From assembly GCA_001983555.1 (NCBI GenBank), contig LJHE01000074.1:17384-81383 (forward strand): DNA of 64,000 nucleotides. Reading direction: 5' to 3'. The translations under genes were made by a program, and so were the position numbers. Positions 1,479 to 54,813 of this stretch are shown here, piece by piece. How positions within the stretch are numbered: the first letter of the stretch is position 1; every line of letters starts with the position of its first letter. The stretch comes from Candidatus Epulonipiscioides gigas (GTDB lineage Bacteria > Bacillota > Clostridia > Lachnospirales > Cellulosilyticaceae). The notes beneath the pieces are model-generated. The model saw nothing but the letters and a program-made list of their open reading frames with translations, was not told where the DNA came from and searched no databases.

Positions 1479-3284
1479 TTAATTCTCACTAAATAATGCT
1501 TTTGCAAAATCTTCGGGATTAAATTCTTGTAAGTCGTCTAATTTTTCACCCACTCCAACAAATTTAACTGGAATATTTAGACTTTGACAAATTCCAACTA
1601 CTGCTCCACCTTTTGCAGTACCATCAAGTTTAGTCAAGATTATTCCATCAACCTTTACAACTTCATTAAACAATCTAACTTGAGAAATAGCATTTTGACC
1701 AGTTGTTGCATCTAGTACTATTATAACCTGTTTGTAAGCATTTGAATACTCCTTTTCTATAATTCGTCCTATTTTTTCTAATTCTTTCATAAGATTAACT
1801 TTATTTTGTAATCTACCTGCTGTATCACAAATAAGTATATCTGCTTTTCTTGCTTTTGCAGCTGCAATTGCGTCATATACTACAGAGGCTGGATCAACCC
1901 CTTCTTTGTTTTTAATTATGTCTACTCCTGCTCTTTGAGACCATATTTCAAGTTGTTCTATTGCAGCAGCTCTAAAAGTATCTGCAGCAGCTAAAATAAC
2001 TTTTTTACCATCTGATTTAAATCTATGAGCAAGTTTTGCAATGCTTGTAGTTTTCCCAGCTCCATTTACTCCTATAACTAAAATTACATTAGGTTGCCCT
2101 TCAACTATAAGTGGAGCTGTTTCTTCTTTGGATGTTAAAATGTCAGTTATAATTTCTTTTAAAGCCATTTTTAAATCGTTTGGGTCACTGATTTTTCTAT
2201 CTTTAACCACTTCTCTTAGCTTATCTAAAATATTTTCTGTAGTTTCAACTCCAAAATCAGCCATTACTAAAACTTCTTCTAATTCTTCATAAAGTTCTTC
2301 ATCTATCTTTTTAAAACTCTTTAAAACATTTTCAACTCCGCCTAATATATTCTCTCTTGTTTTAGTGAGTCCTTTCCATAATCTTTTAAATATACCTTTT
2401 GTTTTTTCAGCTACTACTTCTTTAAGCTCTTCTTTAAATTCTTCTTTAAGTTCTTCCTTAAGCTCTTCCTTAAGTTCTTCTTTAAGTTCTTCTTTTAGTT
2501 CTGTACTTAAATTATTTTCAGTTTCTTTCTCATTATTTTCTGAAAACTCTTCATCAAAATCAAGTTTTATATCTGGAGCATCTTTGTTTTGCTCAAAATG
2601 TACTTCAATTGGTTTAATTTCTTCGATAATTACTTCAGGTTCTATTTTGGTTGGTTTAACTTTTTTATTAGTTGCTTCTGGTTTTATTTTGGTTGGTTTA
2701 ACTTTTTTATTAGTTGCTTCTGATTTTATTTTAGTTGGTTTAACTTCTTCAATAATTACTTCAGGTTCTATTTTGATTGGTTTAACTTCTTCAATAATTA
2801 CTTCAGGTTCTATTTTGGTTGGTTTAACTTCTTCGATAATTACTTCAGGTTCTATTTTGGTTGGTTTAACTTTTTTATTAGTTGCTTCTGGTTTTATTTT
2901 GGTTGGTTTAATTTTTTTATTAGTTGCTTCTGATTTTATTTTAGTTGGGTTAACTTCTTCAATAATTACTTCAGGTTCTATTTTGGTTAGTTTAACTTCT
3001 TCGATAATTAGTTCGGGTTCTACTTCAACGGGTTTAACTTCTTCAATAATTACTTTTGGTTCTTCTGGTATCTGAAGTTCTTCTCTAATTGCTCTAATCT
3101 TTTCTTCAATTGTCTCCTCTTCAATTATCTCCTCCTCAATTTTTTCTTCATCTTCAACTAATTCAAGCTCTTTAGATATTTTAATTTCTTCTTTTATGAT
3201 AGGTGATGTTTTTAAATTTTTATCCTCTTGAATATTTTTATTTTTCTTACCAAATAATTTTTTTATTCCATCAAATAAAGCCAT
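1479..3284 (-). CDS. ftsY: Signal recognition particle receptor FtsY with a long repetitive acidic N-terminal A-domain
   Basis: C-terminal NG domain with the GVNGAGKTTSIAKLA P-loop and the DTAGR and TKLDGTAKGG motifs. N-terminal ~400 aa consist of E/K/P-rich tandem repeats (EPEVIIEEVKPTKI..; ELKEE x5). The gene lies directly downstream of smc. Confidence 0.9.
   Translation of the reverse strand: MALFDGIKKLFGKKNKNIQEDKNLKTSPIIKEEIKISKELELVEDEEKIEEEIIEEETIEEKIRAIREELQIPEEPKVIIEEVKPVEVEPELIIEEVKLTKIEPEVIIEEVNPTKIKSEATNKKIKPTKIKPEATNKKVKPTKIEPEVIIEEVKPTKIEPEVIIEEVKPIKIEPEVIIEEVKPTKIKSEATNKKVKPTKIKPEATNKKVKPTKIEPEVIIEEIKPIEVHFEQNKDAPDIKLDFDEEFSENNEKETENNLSTELKEELKEELKEELKEELKEEFKEELKEVVAEKTKGIFKRLWKGLTKTRENILGGVENVLKSFKKIDEELYEELEEVLVMADFGVETTENILDKLREVVKDRKISDPNDLKMALKEIITDILTSKEETAPLIVEGQPNVILVIGVNGAGKTTSIAKLAHRFKSDGKKVILAAADTFRAAAIEQLEIWSQRAGVDIIKNKEGVDPASVVYDAIAAAKARKADILICDTAGRLQNKVNLMKELEKIGRIIEKEYSNAYKQVIIVLDATTGQNAISQVRLFNEVVKVDGIILTKLDGTAKGGAVVGICQSLNIPVKFVGVGEKLDDLQEFNPEDFAKALFSEN
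2395..3060. repeat. Coding tandem-repeat tract inside the ftsY A-domain. It has a 15-nt ELKEE unit x5, ~42-nt units (EPEVIIEEVKPTKI) and a 210-bp higher-order duplication (about 2636-2770 versus 2846-2980).
   Basis: Near-identical DNA blocks ('ggttctattttggttggtttaacttttttattagttgcttctg...') recur with a 42-nt and a 210-nt period. The opposite-strand ORF 2365..3075 is an artefact of this tract. Confidence 0.8.
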
Positions 3285-11564: not shown

Positions 11565-12143
11565 ATGGCAATCAATCTTCAAAAAGGACAAAAAGTAAAT
11601 CTTACAAAATCATATAAATCAATTTCAAAACTTTTAATAGGTCTTGGATGGGATATTAATTCTTATGATGGCAACTTTGAGTTTGATTTAGACACTAGTA
11701 TTTTTATGATTGGACAAAATGACAAAGTTATGAAAGATAGTGATTTCATTTTCTATGGTAATCTAAAACATGATAGTGATTCTGTAGAACATATGGGTGA
11801 CAACAGAACTGGCGAAGGAGATGGTGACGATGAAGTTATAAAAATAGATTTGACTAAAGTTCCATCTGAAATTAAAAAAATTGTTTTTACCACCACAATT
11901 TATGACGCTGTAGAAAGAAATCAAAATTTTGGGCAAATTTCAAATGCTTTTATTAGAATAGTTGATGCAACAAGTAATACTGAACTATTAAAATATAATC
12001 TTGGAGAAGATTTTTCTATTGAAACAGCCCTTGTCGTCGGAGAAATATACCGTTATGATAATGATTGGAAGTTTGCTGCTATAGGAAGTGGATATAGCGG
12101 TGGGCTGAAAATGCTTTGCCAAGTTTATGGAGTGGATGTTTAA
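11565..12143 (+). CDS. TerD-family stress protein (paralog 1)
   Basis: 192 aa with the canonical TerD N-terminus MAINLQKGQKVNLTK, the GDNRTGEGDGDDEVI Ca-binding-type motif and a C-terminal FAAIGSGYSGGL. AAAGGAG SD. Confidence 0.85.
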   Translation: MAINLQKGQKVNLTKSYKSISKLLIGLGWDINSYDGNFEFDLDTSIFMIGQNDKVMKDSDFIFYGNLKHDSDSVEHMGDNRTGEGDGDDEVIKIDLTKVPSEIKKIVFTTTIYDAVERNQNFGQISNAFIRIVDATSNTELLKYNLGEDFSIETALVVGEIYRYDNDWKFAAIGSGYSGGLKMLCQVYGVDV

Positions 12144-12232: not shown

Positions 12233-12814
12233 ATGGCAGTCAATTTATCTAAAGGTCAAAAAGTTAGTTTAACTAAAGACAGAGCATCTTTATCAAAAAT
12301 ATCAGTAGGTCTTGGATGGGATACTAAACGTTTTGATGGAGGTTCAGATTTCGATTTAGATAGTGTAATTTTTTTAGTTACTGGAAATGGTAGTGTTAAA
12401 GACCAAGATGATTTTATATTTTATGGTAATTTAACTCATAAAACAGGTTCTGTTCAACACATGGGTGATAATAAAACTGGTATTGGTGATGGTGATGATG
12501 AAGTTATAAATATTACCCTTAAGGATATTCCACCTTATGTTGAGCGTATAATTATAGCTGCTACAATTTATGAAGCTGAACAACGAAATCAAAACTTTGG
12601 TCAAGTAGAAAATGCTTATATAAAAATTTATGATCAACTAAAAAATGAAACTATATTGCAATATGACTTAAATGAAGATTTTTCTATAGAAACATCTATG
12701 GTTTTTGGAGAAATTTATAGAAATAATGATGAATGGAAATTTAATGCCATAGGAAGTGGATTTTTCGGAGGACTTGCTGCTCTTTGTGCAACTTATGGAT
12801 TAGACGCTAATTAA
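12233..12814 (+). CDS. TerD-family stress protein (paralog 2)
   Basis: 193 aa carrying MAVNLSKGQKVSLTK, GDNKTGIGDGDDEVI and FNAIGSGFFGGL. Clear paralog of the preceding gene. AAAGGAG SD. Confidence 0.85.
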   Translation: MAVNLSKGQKVSLTKDRASLSKISVGLGWDTKRFDGGSDFDLDSVIFLVTGNGSVKDQDDFIFYGNLTHKTGSVQHMGDNKTGIGDGDDEVINITLKDIPPYVERIIIAATIYEAEQRNQNFGQVENAYIKIYDQLKNETILQYDLNEDFSIETSMVFGEIYRNNDEWKFNAIGSGFFGGLAALCATYGLDAN

Positions 12815-14933: not shown

Positions 14934-16151
14934 ATGAAATTATTAAAGAAAAAATCGATTTGGATTGCAGCTACAGTTGCTCTAGCTGTGACTATTCCAG
15001 TTTTTGCGGCTGGAAATTTTCAAACCCTAGAAGCATATTATAATAATATTAGGGTTACCGTAAATGATGAATATAAAACACTCAAACATGAGCCATTTAT
15101 TGTTGATGGAGTTACATATGTAGGTGTACGTGATATTGGCAGTTTGTTTAATATATCTGCAAATTGGAATGTTATGACTCAAACGGTCGAACTTACCGGT
15201 GGATTATCATCACAAGAAGCTCTTATGTATACTCAGCAAATAACTGCACTACAAGCTGAACTAGAAGATGTGACTAATAAGTTGACACAATATCAACAAT
15301 CTTCATCAGGTAATTATAATTCTAATTCTAATAGTCAATCTAGTAATCCATGGAATAATTCATCTAGTAACACCTGGAATAGTAATCAGTCGTCTAGTAA
15401 TACCCAATATGATACAAATGGATTTTTGCTAGTTGATGTAGATGACATTGAAGATATGTTACATGATGAATATGAAGATTATGAAGATGTAGAATGGACA
15501 TTCAGTCTTTCTCCAAAATCAAGCTATATAAAATTTGATATTGAATTTGATGGAGATGATTATTTAGATGATTATGAAGATATTAGTTCTTCAAAACTTG
15601 AAAGATTTATAGAAGATATGTGCGATGATATTATGGCAGAGCTTGAAGGGTCAATATATGAACGTCATGATATAGAAGGTGATATACATGATGCAGATAA
15701 TGATGAAGATTTATGGTCATTTGAGTATACAGACGGGGATATAGAAGCAGAAGAAAATGAAGCATTCCCTAACCTTGACGAGTTAGAAGATTTGATTTTA
15801 GATGATATCATTACAGATGACTATGATGATGTTTTTGAAATAGATCCACCTAATAGTGATGATGACATTGAAATTGATATTGATGATGTGACGTTAGAGG
15901 TAAATGATGATGAAGATGCTGTTATATTTACAGTTGATATAGATTTTGATAGTGGTGAACAAACTCATTGGGATGAACTATTTGATTTATTAGATAAAAT
16001 ACCAGAAGCAGAAGATCTTATGGAAGATATTGAAAAAGAGATAGAAGATGAATATAATATTGACCGTACAGATGATGAAATAATAGGATATCTTAAAGAC
16101 GGTAGTACTACACTTATAGAATATGACGATAAAGGATTTGATTATAAATAA
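14934..16151 (+). CDS. Secreted protein with a copper-amine-oxidase N-terminal-like (stalk) domain, an S/N-rich linker and a hyper-acidic D/E-rich C-terminal half
   Basis: Signal peptide (MKLLKKKSIWIAATVALAVTIPVFAAG). The CuAO-N-like segment is YNNIRVTVNDEYKTLKHEPFIVDGVTYVGVRDIGSLFNISANW. The last ~250 aa are roughly 40% D+E. GGAGG SD. Confidence 0.6.
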   Translation: MKLLKKKSIWIAATVALAVTIPVFAAGNFQTLEAYYNNIRVTVNDEYKTLKHEPFIVDGVTYVGVRDIGSLFNISANWNVMTQTVELTGGLSSQEALMYTQQITALQAELEDVTNKLTQYQQSSSGNYNSNSNSQSSNPWNNSSSNTWNSNQSSSNTQYDTNGFLLVDVDDIEDMLHDEYEDYEDVEWTFSLSPKSSYIKFDIEFDGDDYLDDYEDISSSKLERFIEDMCDDIMAELEGSIYERHDIEGDIHDADNDEDLWSFEYTDGDIEAEENEAFPNLDELEDLILDDIITDDYDDVFEIDPPNSDDDIEIDIDDVTLEVNDDEDAVIFTVDIDFDSGEQTHWDELFDLLDKIPEAEDLMEDIEKEIEDEYNIDRTDDEIIGYLKDGSTTLIEYDDKGFDYK

Positions 16152-16157
16152 AATAAC

Positions 16158-16190
16158 GGGGCTGTTGTCATAACAGCCCCTATTTGCTAT
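16158..16190 (+). terminator. Rho-independent terminator
   Basis: 9-bp GC-rich stem ggggctgtt/aacagcccc with a 5-nt loop, then tatttgctatagtttttt. Confidence 0.7.
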
Positions 16191-16195
16191 AGTTT

Positions 16196-16406
16196 TTTAT
16201 TGCAAGCTTAGCTCAGTGAACTACCCCCACTTATAGAAGTGTGGGTTTCTTGCGTAAGCCGAACTAATGTTCAGTAATTTAGCAAGCTCTACGGGTCGTC
16301 CCAACCCTGAACTATAAACTGATTATATTATATTTAGTTTATAAAGTCAAGAGATTTTTAGCAATTAATCCCGCCACCTATAGAGGTGGGAGAATTCTTG
16401 CTAGTT
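16196..16406 (+). repeat. Non-coding repeat element, copy A. It holds two 'cccac-N-gtggg' hairpins, each followed by TTCTTG, plus a ~75-nt core shared in inverted orientation with the element at about 54.46-54.53 kb.
   Basis: cccccacttatagaagtgtgggtttcttgcgtaagccgaactaatgttcagta...ctacgggtcgtcccaaccctgaact is about 85% identical to the reverse complement of 54461-54530. A second hairpin is cccgccacctatagaggtgggagaattcttg. Confidence 0.5.
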
Positions 16407-16949
16407 TTAGTTAAAGTCTAAAACAATATCTACTTCATCCCCTTCAAGAGGCTTATAATTTATGATAGCTCCATATCCATTTGGACTGGTAGTGCTATAC
16501 CAAAATAGTTCTTTTTTTAATTTTTCATCGAGCATTTCAAAAGTCATAGTTTGATTCCAATAAATTTTGTTATCATGATCTCTATTGTTATCTACGTATG
16601 TAATTGTATTCTCGTTAATATCTGTAATAAATATTGTGTGATCTGTAACATCGCTATTTCTATATCGTACCATATCTCCAATAGATAAATTTTCAATTTG
16701 AGAATCAGTAGCAGTTGCTCCAAATATTTCATAGCCTTCATTATGACCATTTTTGCTTTCAACGTCGTAAATTTCACCAGTTAAAAATCTTGCTAGACCA
16801 TGACATTCCCATCCAAGTACTAAACCATTGTATGAAAATTCATATTGTTCAGTACCATCAGGATATTCTAACTGAAGTTCTTCAATTTTAGTATTAAATT
16901 CATTCATGGTAATAGATGTATGAGCAAAGATAGGTATCTTAAACGACAT
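16407..16949 (-). CDS. NlpC/P60-CHAP-like papain-fold cysteine peptidase (probable cell-wall hydrolase). It is probably secreted and its true start may lie upstream at a non-canonical codon.
   Basis: Cys/His pair in GWECHGLARF ... DHTIFITDI. The in-frame upstream extension (..ILRFLILSIII-MSFKIPIFAHTSIT) looks like a signal peptide. An AGGAGG SD sits at 16990-16995, but only ATA/ATT codons lie between it and the ATG. Confidence 0.5.
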   Translation of the reverse strand: MSFKIPIFAHTSITMNEFNTKIEELQLEYPDGTEQYEFSYNGLVLGWECHGLARFLTGEIYDVESKNGHNEGYEIFGATATDSQIENLSIGDMVRYRNSDVTDHTIFITDINENTITYVDNNRDHDNKIYWNQTMTFEMLDEKLKKELFWYSTTSPNGYGAIINYKPLEGDEVDIVLDFN

Positions 16950-17119
16950 TATAATTATACTTAAAATTAAAAATCGTAATATATAATTTCCTCCTATTTA
17001 TTATTTTTAAAAAATATATAAAAGTATATCACTTTAAATTATTAATGTCAATAAATTATATTATAATATTTTTATTATTATACAATAGTATATATTTTCT
17101 TTTATATGTTTCTATATGT

Positions 17120-17163
17120 ATAAAGTATGCAAGAAGCTCCCTCATCTTAAAGCATAAGGGAGC
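17120..17163 (-). terminator. Probable terminator of the PFK gene
   Basis: 7-bp stem gctccct/agggagc on the minus strand downstream of the stop at 17176, followed by a U-rich stretch. Confidence 0.4.
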
Positions 17164-17175
17164 AGTTTACTTGTA

Positions 17176-18354
17176 TTAAATTTTCTCTTTTCTTAATCCT
17201 AAATTAAAATCCGTAAATACTGTGAGCTCATCTCCAATTAAAGGTCTGACCCATTCAATAAATTCTTGTGTTACATCATTTCCTTTTGAATTTATAAATT
17301 CATCAGGCATAATTTTTTCACCCATCATAACTTCTTTAATAGGAATTAAAATAATTTCACATTTATAAGGGTTATTTGAAATACGTTTTACACCAACCAT
17401 CATTCCAGTTTTACCTTCTAATACAGCTTTAAGAGCTGCTCTACCAGCTTCAACTGCTTCTTGCACATCAACTGGAGATTGATTCATAATAGATGCACGA
17501 CCAGCTATTCCAGGCTTTTCACTACGAGCTTTAATTCTCAGCTCTTTAATTACAAGCGTTGCAAGATGAGTTCCTACATCTCCAAAATATGTTGCTCGCT
17601 CAGTTTTAAATATCGGAGCTGCTACTGGGTTACCCTGCTCATCTTTAAGTCCTTCGCTCACTGCAACAACAACTCCACCATGTTTTTCATGAAGTTTTTT
17701 TACATCTTCTAAAAATTCTTTTTCATTAAATGGTCTTTCTGGCAAATAAATTAAATGTGGAGCATCTCCCTCTTTCTGCCTGGCTAATGCAGAAGCCGCA
17801 GTAATCCAGCCTGCATTTCTACCCATAGCCTCTACAACAGACACATGTATTGGAAGAGATTTTACATCCTCACCAATTTCTCTAACTGTTTGAGCAATAA
17901 ATCTTGCAGCGCTTCCAAATCCTGGAGCATGATCAGTTATAAAAATATCATTATCAATTGTTTTTGGAATACCAATAACACCAATACCTTTATCTTTTGC
18001 TACTTCAAAAATTTTTCCACAAGTATCCATCGAACCATTGCCACCATTAAATAACACCCATTTTATATCATATTTTTCAAATACTTGAAGCATTCTTTCA
18101 TATTCTTTTTCATAAAGTGGAAATCTTGATGTTCCAAGTGCTGATGCTGGAGTTTTAAGTAATTTTTCTATTTCATCTTCTGGAACTTCTTTTAAATTGA
18201 TAAAGTTTTCATCTAAAATACCACTACTTCCACCAATTGCTCCATAAATTTTGTCTATTTCTGGATACTTTTTTGCTTCTGTAATTGCTCCATAAAGTGA
18301 TGCATTTATTACTGCTGTCGGACCGCCACCATGTGCTATTAATAAATTTGCCAA
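17176..18354 (-). CDS. 6-phosphofructokinase-family enzyme (ATP- versus PPi-dependence undetermined)
   Basis: PFK fold motifs are present (GGNGS in place of GGDGS; PKTIDNDI; MGR). 392 aa. Confidence 0.8.
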   Translation of the reverse strand: MANLLIAHGGGPTAVINASLYGAITEAKKYPEIDKIYGAIGGSSGILDENFINLKEVPEDEIEKLLKTPASALGTSRFPLYEKEYERMLQVFEKYDIKWVLFNGGNGSMDTCGKIFEVAKDKGIGVIGIPKTIDNDIFITDHAPGFGSAARFIAQTVREIGEDVKSLPIHVSVVEAMGRNAGWITAASALARQKEGDAPHLIYLPERPFNEKEFLEDVKKLHEKHGGVVVAVSEGLKDEQGNPVAAPIFKTERATYFGDVGTHLATLVIKELRIKARSEKPGIAGRASIMNQSPVDVQEAVEAGRAALKAVLEGKTGMMVGVKRISNNPYKCEIILIPIKEVMMGEKIMPDEFINSKGNDVTQEFIEWVRPLIGDELTVFTDFNLGLRKEKI

Positions 18355-51261: not shown

Positions 51262-52161
51262 TTGTTTAAAAAAATCTATCAAAATAAGCAAGCTCTAATA
51301 AGTTTATGTAAAGGATTAAAGGGCATTAAAAATATTAAAGAAGAAGATATACAGATTACAACTTTAAGTGAAAGTAATGCTCTTTATGTGCAAATACGAA
51401 ATGACTTATCATTTATAATTGGAACTAACATATTTTTATTTGAGCAACAAAGTGATATAAATCCTAATATGCCTGTAAGACATGCTAGTTACTTTTTTAA
51501 CACTTTATCAGAGCTATTTGGAAATTTAACATTTCACTCTAAAACTTTACAGAAAATTCCAAGATCTATATTAATAACTTTTACCAATGGTAATCCAAAA
51601 AATATAACTCATGAAGTCCTTAAACTATCGGATATGTTTCAAGAAAGTACCAAATCAGAAGAAGCTCATAGTAAAATTAAAATAAATGGTAGAAATCAAA
51701 ACTATATTGAAGTTTATGTTGAAGTAATTTATTTAAATCATCCAGATAATAAAGAATTGTTGGATAAAATTCCAACATTAAAAGGTTTTGCTTTTTTTAC
51801 ACAATCATTAAAAAAATATCGAAAAGAAAACTATAGTAAAAACACATCTGTAGAAAAAGCTATAGAAGATACAATTAATCAAAATCTTTTAGTAGATTTA
51901 TTAGTTAAGGAAAGAGAAAAAATTAAAAGTTTGATAATGTCGCAAATAACTCAAGAAGAATGGAATACCTTTAAACATAATGAGGGTTTTAATGAAGGTA
52001 TTAAACAAGGAATATCTCAAGGTATCGAACAAGGTGTTGAACAAGGTCTAATTAGAGCAGCTATATCTTTATTAGATATATTAGATGATAAAACAATTTC
52101 AGAAAAAATCAATTTATCAATTGATGAAGTTATAAAACTGAGACAACAGTATAATAAATAA
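51262..52161 (+). CDS. Rpn-family recombination-promoting nuclease / putative transposase (YhgA-like, PD-(D/E)XK)
   Basis: C-terminal GFNEGIKQGISQGIEQGVEQG repeat typical of the family. Only a TTG start is available. The N-terminus is short relative to family members. Confidence 0.55.
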   Translation: MFKKIYQNKQALISLCKGLKGIKNIKEEDIQITTLSESNALYVQIRNDLSFIIGTNIFLFEQQSDINPNMPVRHASYFFNTLSELFGNLTFHSKTLQKIPRSILITFTNGNPKNITHEVLKLSDMFQESTKSEEAHSKIKINGRNQNYIEVYVEVIYLNHPDNKELLDKIPTLKGFAFFTQSLKKYRKENYSKNTSVEKAIEDTINQNLLVDLLVKEREKIKSLIMSQITQEEWNTFKHNEGFNEGIKQGISQGIEQGVEQGLIRAAISLLDILDDKTISEKINLSIDEVIKLRQQYNK

Positions 52162-52194
52162 GCTTTATTTTTATTATAATTTAAATGATATTTA

Positions 52195-52450
52195 GGAATG
52201 GAACAGCCCAAAGAGCTTGCTCAAGTACCTAGAAGTTGTAGGAAGTACGCAAGAAGCTCCATCTTCTAAGCATTAGCGTATAAAGGATTAGTTCACCAAA
52301 TTAAAGCAAGGAAATCAAACTATTCATTGCATTTTGATTTATTCAAATCTTTATTATTTAACTATATTTTTACCTCAATAGGCGTAAAGCCCACTCCTTT
52401 AGTGGTGGGAGTTTCAGTTCAACTACGAAATCACTTAAAGTAATTAAAAT
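52195..52450 (+). repeat. Non-coding repeat element, copy B (cccactcctttagtggtgggagTTTCAG hairpin; GCAAGAAGCTCC motif)
   Basis: Shares the cccac/gtggg hairpin + TTYCWG tail with 16.2 kb. The GCAAGAAGCTCCnTCnTCTTAAGCAT segment also occurs at 17127-17160. Confidence 0.4.
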
Positions 52451-52490
52451 TTTCAATTAAAGTACTGACATTATCTAAAAATTGTTATAT

Positions 52491-52540
52491 AAGAGACACT
52501 TCTGCAAATTTATTATGTCATAGGAGATGTCTCTTTTTTT
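52491..52540 (+). terminator. Terminator-like hairpin in the MCP leader
   Basis: agagaca...tgtctct stem, followed by TTTTTTTG. Confidence 0.35.
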
Positions 52541-52682
52541 GTGTTATACTTTTCCTAAAATAATTTTATGCTATCGTTTTTAGCTATAATTATTATTTGA
52601 AAAAAATTTTTTTCACTTGTAATTTCTCTTTTTTTTTTGTATAATTTTTTTGTATAAAATTTTAGAAAAGGAGCGTTAAGAA

Positions 52683-54353: not shown

Positions 54354-54370
54354 CTTATAATTTCAACAAC

Positions 54371-54408
54371 GACTATAGATATTTTATTTTAACTATAGTC
54401 TTTTTTTA
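54371..54408 (+). terminator. Rho-independent terminator of the MCP gene
   Basis: gactatag/ctatagtc stem with a 14-nt loop, then TTTTTTT. Confidence 0.6.
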
Positions 54409-54454
54409 GTTTTACTAAACTTAACTATATTCGACAATTTAGATAAAAATTTAA

Positions 54455-54720
54455 AGTTCAAGGTCTGGACGATCCGTAGTACTGAACATTGGTTCGGCTT
54501 ACACAAGAAGCCCACATTATATACGAATTAAAATCTGTCCAATAAATCGGGTTCCGTTCAACCTCCTCTGAACCATTCCGTCAGCTTGCGTTGCCTCATT
54601 TTAGTTGCCTCATTTTAATAGAAGAAATCACCAAAGGTGCAGGTTGGTTTAGGGTGAGAATTTCTTGATATCAAAAGACTTTTTCAGTGGCTTCGTTATA
54701 TGTACCAAGCAACAAATACT
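54455..54720. repeat. Non-coding repeat element, copy C. It contains the inverted ~75-nt core shared with 16.2 kb, a tandem 14-nt duplication (TTGCCTCATTTTA x2) and a second gtgag-AATTTCTTG motif in the opposite orientation.
   Basis: The reverse complement of 54461-54530 aligns with 16237-16310. The tandem duplication is at 54603-54630 and ggtgagaatttcttg at about 54651-54668. Confidence 0.45.
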
Positions 54721-54813
54721 TTATAATTAAATAAAAAATCTCCTTGGCTAGAGGAGAAGTTGTTAAGATGAAATATTCTAATATCAATGAGCTTGCTCTA
54801 TAAACTGATGTGC

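What the first reader, a model, noticed from the sequence alone, without database searches (positions are those of the whole stretch)
16196..16406. Family of non-coding repeat elements built on a 'cccac-loop-gtggg + TTCTTG' hairpin, with copies in three long intergenic spacers
Three unusually long spacers each carry a short hairpin whose stem is cccac/gtggg, followed by (A)TTTCTTG or TTTCAG. They are 255 nt between convergent genes at 16.2 kb, 520 nt at 52.2 kb and 460 nt between convergent genes at 54.5 kb. The 16.2 kb copy has two such hairpins (cccccacttatagaagtgtgggTTTCTTG and cccgccacctatagaggtgggagAATTCTTG). A ~75-nt core at 16237-16310 is about 85% identical to the reverse complement of 54461-54530, except for an 11-nt insertion. 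This is not coding. The elements follow the ordinary terminators of the flanking genes and sit between convergent genes, where no leader is needed. They look like a small dispersed element: a MITE or REP-like repeat, an sRNA gene family, or integrase attachment-site remnants.
Basis: seen in the sequence. Interest (0 to 1): 0.55.

Follow-up and report, generated by a model that had tools for sequence, protein, structure and literature searches.

The report
Gene-less IS200/IS605 mini-transposon and relics
The repeated hairpin sequence is the two ends of a common bacterial jumping gene (IS200/IS605 family) that has lost its genes, plus a few decayed copies of one end, so it is a real but ordinary mobile-element remnant.

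Summary
The repeat is real. Window 16216-16409 (minus strand, 194 nt) is an internally deleted, gene-less derivative (a PATE, the MITE type of this family) of an IS200/IS605 insertion sequence. Its left part matches the left end (LE) and its right part the right end (RE) of a full-length element in a related Epulopiscium-associated metagenome contig (L012). That element carries tnpA (Y1 transposase) and tnpB (RNA-guided nuclease). The mini-element abuts the family's target motif TTTAAC on the left and ends in GTTCAC, like every relative examined. These hairpins are the kind the transposase binds. The 97-nt RE also holds three further helices with compensatory changes across relatives, at the position of the TnpB guide-RNA (omega RNA) scaffold. 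The LE keeps the tnpA promoter, which now points straight into that scaffold. The 52.2 kb and 54.5 kb copies, and probably a piece at 17.1 kb, are decayed solo RE relics. The window has no tnpA or tnpB. No Rfam family or tRNA matches. Gene-less IS200/IS605 derivatives that carry omega RNAs are already described, so this is a new member of a known kind and of low interest.

The parts
16410..16415 (-). Target/transposon-adjacent motif TTTAAC, directly 5' of the left end. It forms the last two sense codons (TTT AAC) of ORF 16407..16949.
   Evidence: site 16410-16415, minus strand. The same hexamer abuts the LE in L013-L034, and GTTAAC does so in L012.
16320..16409 (-). Left end (LE) of the mini-element. 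It contains an imperfect palindrome at 16359-16403 (the inferred TnpA-binding hairpin, preceded by GCAAGAA) and the retained tnpA promoter TTGACT-17-TATAAT at 16350..16322. The first three bases (TAA, 16409..16407) now serve as the stop codon of the 180-aa ORF.
   Evidence: 87% identical to L012 1827-1917, upstream of tnpA. LE covariance model R2 scores 82.7 bits, E 7e-17, and is the only LE in the window. Hairpin fold; pair counts; promoter.
16216..16319 (-). Right end (RE), which corresponds to the 3' omega-RNA scaffold. Helices: Pa 16293-16307; Pc 16249-16253 paired with 16282-16286; Pb 16259-16274; subterminal hairpin Pd 16224-16245. It ends in GTTCAC at 16216.
   Evidence: 96-97% identical to L012 3445-3542 (just 3' of tnpB), L013 9534-9636 and L011 113-215. 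R1 scores 105.8 bits, E 1e-22. Covariation.
16200..16215 (-). The 16 nt flanking the RE (TGAGCTAAGCTTGCAA), at the position from which a TnpB omega RNA takes its guide. Together with TTTAAC it would specify the empty (excised) donor site.
   Evidence: Position relative to the RE boundary. No second match in the window. The function is inferred from the published TnpB mechanism (PMC10055086).
16158..16180 (.). Host bidirectional terminator hairpin shared by the convergent genes. It is not part of the element, but it is the likely stop for a transcript leaving the mini-element.
   Evidence: terminator-like on both strands.
52190..52296 (+). Diverged, decayed solo right end. Pc and Pb can still form; Pa and the subterminal hairpin are broken. 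It ends in AGTTCAC. There is no LE upstream.
   Evidence: R1 scores 39.9 bits, E 2e-7. blastn gives 67% over 78 nt, E 2e-6. No LE match.
52390..52423 (+). Hairpin CCCAC..GTGGG followed by AGTTTCAGTTCAAC. It may be a relic of another right-end hairpin, or simply a terminator.
   Evidence: It is one of only two CCCAC-N-GTGGG sites in the window, with 0.01 expected. The simple scan calls it terminator-like. It is not significant with R1 (E 6.8) and is not listed among the R2 matches.
54456..54561 (+). Decayed solo right end. 54456-54516 is clearly homologous but lacks 12 nt (the 5' strand of Pc). The 3' arm of the subterminal hairpin is lost or displaced, so 54517-54561 is uncertain.
   Evidence: I3. 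97% identity to L012 3481-3517. Alignment. R1 scores only 15.7 bits, E 0.09.
17129..17170 (+). Possible right-end hairpin relic of the 52.2 kb subtype: GCAAGAA + GCTCCCT..AGGGAGC + AGTTTAC. It sits 5 nt from the stop codon of pfk (17176..18354, minus strand) and may act as that gene's terminator.
   Evidence: 84% over 31 nt to 52237-52267, E 0.001. R1 scores 17.4 bits, E 0.03, carried mostly by the 3' ~45 nt. Sequence.

Best explanation
Window 16216-16409 (minus strand) is a 194-nt non-autonomous IS200/IS605-family element (a PATE, the family's MITE type). It arose by deletion of about 1.5 kb (tnpA, tnpB and 31 nt after the tnpB stop) from an IS605-type insertion sequence.

Shown here:
- Both halves are homologous to the LE and RE of a full element that encodes a Y1 (HUH) TnpA and a TnpB.
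- The element starts directly after TTTAAC and ends in GTTCAC, like all relatives examined.
- Each end carries a subterminal imperfect hairpin on the same strand, preceded by CAAGAA.
- The RE contains three further helices with compensatory substitutions.
- The LE keeps a conserved sigma-70-type tnpA promoter, now about 10 nt upstream of the RE.

Inferred from the established mechanism of the family:
- TnpA supplied in trans by an autonomous copy elsewhere in the genome binds the two hairpins on single-stranded DNA. It excises the element as a circle ('peel and paste') and inserts it 3' of TTTAAC without a target duplication.
- The RE is transcribed, here from the LE promoter, into an omega-RNA-like molecule. 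Its scaffold is bound by TnpB in trans and its guide is the 16 nt flanking the RE.
- TnpB then cuts the empty donor joint (TTTAAC + TGAGCTAAGCTTGCAA) after excision, so that recombination with a sister genome copy restores the element.

The copies at 52190-52296 and 54456-54561, and probably 17129-17170, are decayed solo right ends of the same family. They have broken helices and no LE, and are very likely inert.
For: - Homology of 16216-16319 (96-97%) and 16313-16403 (87%) to the RE and LE of L012.
- L012 1940-2335 is Y1_Tnp (E 2e-44). L012 2346-3413 carries OrfB_IS605, the Cas12f1-like TNB domain and the HTH. Both pass the NCBIfam cut-offs: IS200_TnpB 510 bits against 425, transpos_IS200 147.7 against 55.
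- The element boundaries are conserved. TTTAAC sits before the LE and GTTCAC ends the RE in more than 12 loci with unrelated flanks.
- Copies of the same ends lie in different contexts: L011, L013, L012 and the window.
- The end models find 16216-16312 at E 1e-22 and 16351-16415 at E 7e-17.
- RE helices: 94.4% of cells pair against 76.8% when shuffled and 32-48% when slid, and 11 pairs change on both sides.
- LE palindrome: 91.9% of cells pair.
- A TTGACT-17-TATAAT promoter lies in the window LE, and similar -35/-10 hexamers can be read in the LE of L012, L014 and L028.
- PATEs that encode omega RNAs used in trans are described by Meers et al. (PMC10055086). A comparable 271-nt PATE-like element is described in PMC7290912.
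Against: - No tnpA or tnpB lies in the 64-kb window, so a trans-acting source in this genome is assumed, not shown.
- No empty site was found. The orthologous locus in GCA_001983465.1 carries the identical element, so recent mobility at this site is unproven.
- In characterised TnpB systems the omega-RNA scaffold starts inside the tnpB 3' end. The mini-element lacks that part, so its RNA may be incomplete.
- Transcription was not measured. Promoter-like hexamers are common in this AT-rich DNA: 7 found against 8.5 expected.
- The covariation counts were made on an alignment fitted to the model.
Confidence: 0.9

Rival explanations
1. This is a family of host trans-acting small RNA genes, unrelated to transposition. 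Each has its own promoter and a terminator-like hairpin.
For: A strong promoter-like site (11 of 12 matches) lies upstream of the structured 97-nt region on the minus strand, and a terminator lies downstream. The helices covary. The element is conserved at the same site in a sister genome.
Against: - Both halves are the ends of an IS with tnpA and tnpB.
- The unit is bounded by the family's TTTAAC and GTTCAC motifs.
- The other window copies have broken helices and no promoter.
- The absence of mismatches in the sister genome is shared by a 1.5-kb low-divergence block and is not specific to the element.
- No Rfam match.
Confidence: 0.04
2. These are REP/BIME-type repeats mobilised by a REP-associated tyrosine transposase (RAYT).
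For: The short GC-rich palindromes sit in intergenic spacers after terminators. The associated transposase is of the Y1 (HUH) class, like RAYTs (weak hit of 30 bits).
Against: - The RAYT model is below its cut-off (30 against 80 bits), whereas the IS200 transposase model scores 147.7 against 55.
- The unit is 194 nt with distinct LE and RE, not a 20-40-nt palindrome.
- tnpB is present in the full element.
- Only one intact unit occurs in 64 kb.
Confidence: 0.02
3. These are ordinary rho-independent terminators, or chance hairpins, that resemble one another only by convergence.
For: The 52390 hairpin is scored terminator-like. The 17.1 kb hairpin sits 5 nt after the pfk stop codon. The 54.65 kb hairpin matches no model.
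Against: - The similarity extends far beyond the hairpins: 104 nt at 96% to other loci, and 39.9 bits for the 52.2 kb copy.
- The T-tracts are poor.
- Chance expectation for the motif is 0.01 per window.
This rival can hold only for the outlying hairpins at 52390 and 54650, not for the family.
Confidence: 0.03
4. These are integrase attachment-site remnants or tRNA gene fragments.
For: On the plus strand, 16202-16222 (GCAAGCTTAGCTCAGTGAACT) superficially resembles a tRNA acceptor and D arm.
Against: ARAGORN finds no tRNA or tmRNA in the window. No Rfam tRNA hit appears even at E up to 10. That stretch straddles the RE boundary (flank plus the last bases of the element), so it is not a single unit. 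No integrase was noticed next to any copy (only some neighbours were scanned).
Confidence: 0.01

Closest known systems
PATEs (palindrome-associated transposable elements), the ends-only derivatives of IS200/IS605. They were named in Haloquadratum walsbyi (PMC3119063). Examples are the ISGst PATE-like elements of Geobacillus stearothermophilus (PMC10055086) and the 271-nt PATE-like element of Halanaerobium hydrogeniformans (PMC7290912).
   Same: No protein-coding gene. LE and RE with subterminal hairpins retained. Homologous autonomous IS with tnpA and tnpB. A fixed motif at the LE side and no inverted terminal repeats. The RE region that corresponds to the omega RNA is retained.
   Different: The deletion here is more complete than in the Halanaerobium example, which keeps the last 58 nt of tnpB. 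Here nothing of tnpB remains, not even the 31 nt after its stop. The deletion also places the tnpA promoter about 10 nt from the RE scaffold. The host is an Epulopiscium lineage, for which a full-text search found no paper mentioning IS200.
IS605-group insertion sequences (IS608 of Helicobacter pylori, ISDra2 of Deinococcus radiodurans) and their TnpB omega/reRNA
   Same: Gene order tnpA then tnpB. Y1 transposase. Hairpins at both ends on one strand. Target motif 5' of the LE (TTAC in IS608, TTGAT in ISDra2; these two from my own knowledge). A structured RNA at the 3' end of tnpB that runs to the RE boundary.
   Different: The target motif is TTTAAC. TTTAA-type TAMs are reported for TnpB relatives of the Enterococcus TldRs (bioRxiv 10.1101/2023.11.30.569447). 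The end sequences are unrelated to IS608 and ISDra2. No Rfam model covers this RE. The window copy has no genes.
REP/BIME elements with RAYT transposases
   Same: Intergenic palindromes handled by an HUH Y1 enzyme related to IS200 TnpA.
   Different: REPs are much shorter and highly repeated, they flank the RAYT gene, and they have no TnpB or guide RNA. The RAYT model is not met here.

Membership tests
IS200/IS605-family non-autonomous element (PATE/MITE) | Both ends are homologous to the LE and RE of an autonomous element that encodes a Y1 (HUH) TnpA transposase | tested here: met
   Window 16313-16403 matches L012 1827-1917 (87%), and 16215-16312 matches L012 3445-3542 (97%). L012 TnpA hits Y1_Tnp at E 2e-44 and transpos_IS200 at 147.7 bits against a cut-off of 55.
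IS200/IS605-family non-autonomous element (PATE/MITE) | Subterminal imperfect palindromes at both ends on the same strand, and no terminal inverted repeats | tested here: met
   The DNA fold shows the LE hairpin at 16359-16403 and the RE hairpin at 16224-16245, both on the minus-strand sense. 91.9% of LE pairs are kept across 9 relatives. The termini TAAAAC... and ...GTTCAC are not inverted repeats.
IS200/IS605-family non-autonomous element (PATE/MITE) | Insertion 3' of a fixed short target motif abutting the LE, a conserved motif at the RE tip, and no target-site duplication | tested here: met
   TTTAAC (GTTAAC in L012) precedes the LE and GTTCAC ends the RE in the window and in L012-L034, whose flanks are unrelated. 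The window flanks are TTTAAC| and |TGAGCT, so there is no duplication.
IS200/IS605-family non-autonomous element (PATE/MITE) | No transposase gene inside the element | tested here: met
   The element is 194 nt. tblastn of TnpA and TnpB against the whole window finds nothing better than E 1.4.
IS200/IS605-family non-autonomous element (PATE/MITE) | Evidence of mobility: the same unit at different sites, and empty sites | tested here: inconclusive
   The same ends occur in four different contexts (window, L011, L013, L012). The exact 194-nt unit was seen only at this one locus. The only orthologous locus recovered (L036, GCA_001983465.1) is also occupied, so no empty site was found.
IS200/IS605-family non-autonomous element (PATE/MITE) | Excision and integration by TnpA supplied in trans | not testable with these tools
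   This needs an excision or transposition assay, and the complete genome to locate a tnpA source.
TnpB omega RNA (reRNA) | Encoded at the 3' end of tnpB, ending exactly at the RE boundary so that the flank supplies the guide | tested here: met
   In L012-L034 the structured block starts 9-37 nt after the tnpB stop and ends at GTTCAC, after which the flanks diverge. The window RE is its homologue.
TnpB omega RNA (reRNA) | Conserved secondary structure with covariation beyond the TnpA-bound hairpin | tested here: met
   Helices Pa, Pb and Pc have 10 of 16 pairs with changes on both sides. Overall 94.4% of cells pair, against 76.8% shuffled and 32-48% slid. RNAalifold independently predicts Pa and Pb. 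Caveat: alignment A4 was fitted to the model.
TnpB omega RNA (reRNA) | A complete scaffold, including the 5' part that overlaps the tnpB 3' end in characterised systems | tested here: inconclusive
   The mini-element keeps only the last 97-104 nt. Whether this family needs upstream sequence cannot be decided from sequence alone.
TnpB omega RNA (reRNA) | Transcribed, processed and bound by TnpB, and guiding TAM-dependent DNA cleavage | not testable with these tools
   No expression or biochemical data are available. The only support is a promoter-like site and a downstream terminator.
REP/BIME with RAYT | Associated transposase belongs to the RAYT family, and the repeats are 20-40-nt palindromes in high copy | tested here: not met
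   REP_Tyr_transpos scores 30 bits against a cut-off of 80, whereas the IS200 model passes. The unit is 194 nt, and there is one intact copy per 64 kb.
Any curated Rfam RNA family, or a tRNA/tmRNA | Match at the family's gathering score, or ARAGORN detection | tested here: not met
   There are no gathering-score hits in the window or in 8 related loci. Permissive scans give only E above 1. No tRNA or tmRNA.

The most novel reading that the evidence does not exclude
The 194-nt unit may not be mere debris. It could be a maintained, self-contained 'solo guide-RNA gene': the conserved tnpA promoter fused about 10 nt upstream of a compact 97-nt omega-RNA scaffold, fixed at the same site in two Epulopiscium lineages. 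It would be used in trans by a TnpB (or a nuclease-dead TnpB-like repressor) encoded elsewhere. Its role could be to preserve the element across the genome copies of this bacterium, which I recall to be extremely polyploid, or to regulate a host target. A corollary is that this TnpB clade would need only a 97-nt scaffold lying wholly outside the tnpB reading frame.
Probability: 0.12. Interest if true: 0.5.

Novelty: new member of a known kind. Interest (0 to 1): 0.18.

Why it matters
- It explains three 'unusually long' spacers as transposon insertions and their decay products, so they need not be annotated as unknown regulatory RNAs.
- It gives exact boundaries (TTTAAC | LE ... RE GTTCAC |) and two covariance models that could annotate this IS605 lineage and its gene-less derivatives in Epulopiscium and other Clostridia genomes.
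- It adds one natural example of a PATE in which a promoter is joined directly to the TnpB guide-RNA scaffold. That could interest people studying minimal omega RNAs, or TnpB-driven transposon retention in a highly polyploid bacterium.
- Beyond this, the finding is ordinary.

Tried and rejected
- **Rfam:** gathering scan of the window, permissive scans of two spacers and of the L012 RE, and gathering scan of 8 related loci. No family matched.
- **tRNA/tmRNA scan**: none found.
- **Exact-pattern scan of GTDB representative genomes**: 8 hits, of which 7 look like chance matches in unrelated phyla. Only the Epulopiscium MAG contig was relevant.
- **Viral contigs**: no match.
- **Plasmid collection**, queried with the mini-element and with the 54.5 kb spacer: no match.
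- **Small-ORF reading of the core:** a 27-codon TTG frame in the 16.2 kb copy is interrupted in the 54.5 kb copy, so it was rejected (by eye).
- **Group II intron, IStron and retron ideas:** dropped once the tnpA-tnpB context appeared and Rfam gave no intron hit.
- **Empty-site search:** exact look-ups of the 405-aa and 180-aa flanking proteins failed. The one orthologous locus found (L036) is also occupied.
- **Selective conservation:** the zero mismatches in the spacer between the window and L036 belong to a 1.5-kb low-divergence block, so they are not evidence of selection on the element.
- **LE model on the 52.39 kb and 54.65 kb hairpins:** not significant.
- **Off-site target for the 16-nt guide-equivalent:** none in the window.

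Full report
**Observation.** The three spacers exist with the stated lengths: 16152-16406, 52162-52682 and 54354-54813. The two hairpins quoted for the 16.2 kb spacer are there. The repeat is not chance:
- 16240-16276 is 92% complementary to 54480-54516 (I3; blastn E about 1e-8).
- The alignment continues for another 25 nt across a 12-nt indel.
- A third, more diverged copy lies at 52190-52296 in the same orientation as the 54.5 kb copy (67% over 78 nt, E 2e-6).
- The literal motif CCCAC-N3-14-GTGGG occurs only at 16226-16245 and 52390-52409, against 0.01 expected.

The claim that every spacer carries an intact cccac/gtggg hairpin followed by TTCTTG is only partly true. The 54.5 kb copy retains one arm. 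The 54.65 kb and 52.39 kb hairpins are not significant matches to either end model.

**What it is not.** No Rfam family reaches its gathering score anywhere in the window, and permissive scans of the spacers give only E above 1. ARAGORN finds no tRNA or tmRNA. A short TTG frame in the 16.2 kb copy is interrupted in the 54.5 kb copy, so the core is non-coding.

**Where the sequence recurs.** Exact-pattern scans of public collections hit contigs from Epulopiscium-associated assemblies: L008/L013 (Epulopiscium sp. Nele67-Bin005), L011 and L012.
- Window 16216-16319 is 96-97% identical to a 104-nt block in each of them, in different flanking contexts.
- The neighbouring window segment 16313-16417 matches a second block in L012 and L013.
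- In L012 the two blocks are 1.5 kb apart and enclose two genes. One is a 131-aa Y1_Tnp transposase (E 2e-44). The other is a 355-aa TnpB with HTH_OrfB_IS605, OrfB_IS605 and the Cas12f1-like TNB domain. Both are above the NCBIfam cut-offs for IS200/IS605 TnpA and TnpB.
- The 104-nt block begins 31 nt after the tnpB stop codon.

The window segment is therefore LE plus RE of an IS605-type insertion sequence with everything in between deleted. The junction corresponds to L012 1917|3445. The window itself has no tnpA or tnpB (tblastn).

**Boundaries.** I fetched contigs for 8 TnpB relatives of 64-80% identity. In every locus the LE is preceded by TTTAAC (GTTAAC in L012) and the RE ends in GTTCAC, after which the flanks are unrelated.

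In the window the motif TTTAAC is at 16415..16410. The first LE base is 16409 and the last RE base is 16216, which gives 194 nt. There is no target duplication.

One side observation follows. The insertion lies exactly at the stop codon of the 180-aa ORF (...GAC TTT AAC | TAA). The TAA is the first three bases of the LE, and the pre-insertion sequence would have read ...AAC TGA from the present RE flank, so the protein is unchanged. Without the element the spacer would be about 60 nt and hold just the bidirectional terminator 16158-16180. That explains why the spacer looked unusually long.

**Anatomy.**
- *Shared motif.* On the element's sense (window minus) strand, both ends read CAAGAA followed by an imperfect hairpin. 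The LE reads GCAAGAATTCTCCCACCTCTATAGGTGGCGGG. The RE reads GCAAGAAACCCACACTTCTATAAGTGGGGG followed by TAGTTCAC.
- *LE.* The LE palindrome is kept across 9 relatives: 91.9% of cells pair, with compensatory changes at 4 pairs. It folds as DNA.
- *RE.* The RE has, besides its subterminal hairpin (Pd), three helices. Pa is GGGTYG-GGA-CRACCC. Pc (CTTGC/GCAAG here; CTTGG/CCAAG, CTTGA/TCAAG or CCTAG/CTAGG elsewhere) encloses Pb, a hairpin with a 4-nt loop.
- *RE covariation.* RNAalifold predicts Pa and Pb on an unfitted alignment, with 8 pairs changed on both sides. On the model-fitted alignment 94.4% of cells pair, against 76.8% in shuffles and 32-48% when partners are slid, and 11 pairs change on both sides.
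- *Interpretation of the RE.* By the IS608 model (my own knowledge), TnpA needs only the subterminal hairpin and the cleavage motifs. Covarying helices between the tnpB stop and that hairpin therefore indicate an RNA, at the position described for the TnpB omega/reRNA, whose guide is the DNA just outside the RE (PMC10055086). That is an inference; no expression data exist.
- *Promoter.* The LE carries TTGACT-17-TATAAT (16350..16322, 11 of 12 matches). The same kind of promoter can be read in front of tnpA in L012, L014 and L028. In the mini-element it ends about 10 nt before the RE. A minus-strand transcript would therefore consist of the scaffold, the 16-nt flank TGAGCTAAGCTTGCAA and the host terminator.

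**Other copies in the window.** The RE model finds:
- 16216-16312 at 105.8 bits;
- 52190-52296 at 39.9 bits (E 2e-7). Pb and Pc can still form, Pa and Pd are broken, and it ends in AGTTCAC;
- 17074-17170 at 17.4 bits (E 0.03). Only the last ~45 nt are convincing. They form a GCAAGAA-hairpin-AGTTTAC unit that is 84% similar to the 52.2 kb copy and lies 5 nt from the pfk stop codon;
- 54456-54561 at 15.7 bits (E 0.09). This copy is clearly homologous by blastn but lacks the 5' strand of Pc and the 3' arm of Pd.

The LE model finds only 16351-16415. So the window holds one structurally intact mini-element and two to three decayed solo right ends. The 52390 hairpin may be a further relic or a terminator. 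The 54.65 kb hairpin is unassigned.

**Organism and conservation.** The 180-aa ORF is 100% identical to a hypothetical protein of Epulopiscium sp. SCG-B10WGA-EpuloA2. Contig LJHF01000001.1 (GCA_001983465.1; L036) is 97.8% identical to the window over 5.3 kb and carries the identical mini-element at the same site. The insertion therefore predates the divergence of these two genomes, and no empty site was recovered. The absence of mismatches in the spacer is not specific to the element: 15418-16949 as a whole has only 2 differences.

**Mechanism.**
- *Shown:* homology to IS ends, conserved boundaries, hairpins, covarying RE helices, retained promoter, absence of genes.
- *Inferred from the established IS200/IS605 'peel-and-paste' pathway and the TnpB literature:* TnpA made by an autonomous copy binds the LE and RE hairpins on single-stranded DNA, excises the unit and reinserts it 3' of TTTAAC. 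The RE transcript acts as an omega RNA for TnpB in trans and directs cleavage of the excised donor joint (TTTAAC + flank), so that recombination restores the element.
- *Uncertain:* whether the 97-nt scaffold is complete, because in characterised systems the scaffold begins inside tnpB, and whether this genome still has tnpA and tnpB.

**Comparison with known elements, and novelty.** Ends-only IS200/IS605 derivatives (PATEs) are documented (PMC3119063; PMC7290912). Meers et al. state that such elements often encode omega RNAs that must be used in trans. TTTAA-type TAMs are known for related TnpBs. TnpB homologues of this clade are very abundant: all 8000 scored candidates were at E no greater than 1e-30. 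The finding is thus a new member of a known kind.

**Verdict.** Interest is low. The only mildly unusual points are the direct promoter-to-scaffold fusion and the host.

Noticed in passing
window 16407-16415: The mini-element inserted exactly at the stop codon of the 180-aa ORF. The present TAA stop is the first three bases of the left end. The pre-insertion stop would have been TGA from the current right-end flank (TGAGCT...), so the protein is unchanged.
   Followed up: partly
L013 9534-9906 (minus strand) and L011 1-215: The Epulopiscium sp. Nele67 MAG carries a longer gene-less variant with the same LE start and RE but about 270 nt of unrelated, structured-looking internal sequence. It occurs in at least two copies with different right flanks.
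   Followed up: partly
window 54562-54700: This stretch is richer in G+C than its surroundings and has no assigned origin. It lies downstream of the right-end relic and includes a 14-nt tandem duplication (GTTGCCTCATTTTA at 54590-54603 and 54604-54617) and a hairpin tcacc...ggtga followed by ATTTCTTG. It has no match in the plasmid collection or in Rfam.
   Followed up: partly
window 17137-17163: The hairpin of the possible right-end relic sits 5-13 nt downstream of the pfk stop codon on the minus strand. It may have been co-opted as the pfk terminator. Two of the eight differences from GCA_001983465.1 in this spacer fall in or next to it (17133, 17144).
   Followed up: no
window 15418-16949 compared with L036: This 1.5-kb block has only 2 differences from GCA_001983465.1, against 1.4-4.4% divergence in the flanking genes. 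There is also a 27-nt indel at about 15338 in the 405-aa ORF. A recent recombination tract is one possible cause.
   Followed up: no
window 2525-3112: About ten tandem copies of a 42-nt unit (14 codons) lie inside the 601-aa minus-strand ORF 1479..3284 (D1/D2). This looks like a repeat-containing protein.
   Followed up: no
window 51262-52161: This 299-aa ORF starts at TTG and has no Pfam family. It has a C-terminal EGIKQGISQGIEQGVEQG repeat and only sub-threshold FliH-like hits. From memory, the C-terminus resembles Rpn/PD-(D/E)XK 'putative transposase' proteins. An in-frame stop just upstream suggests N-terminal truncation. It lies directly upstream of the 52.2 kb right-end relic.
   Followed up: partly
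window 11565-12143 and 12233-12814: Two adjacent ORFs of 192 and 193 aa share a 121-nt segment at 72% identity (D3). They are probably tandem paralogues.
   Followed up: no
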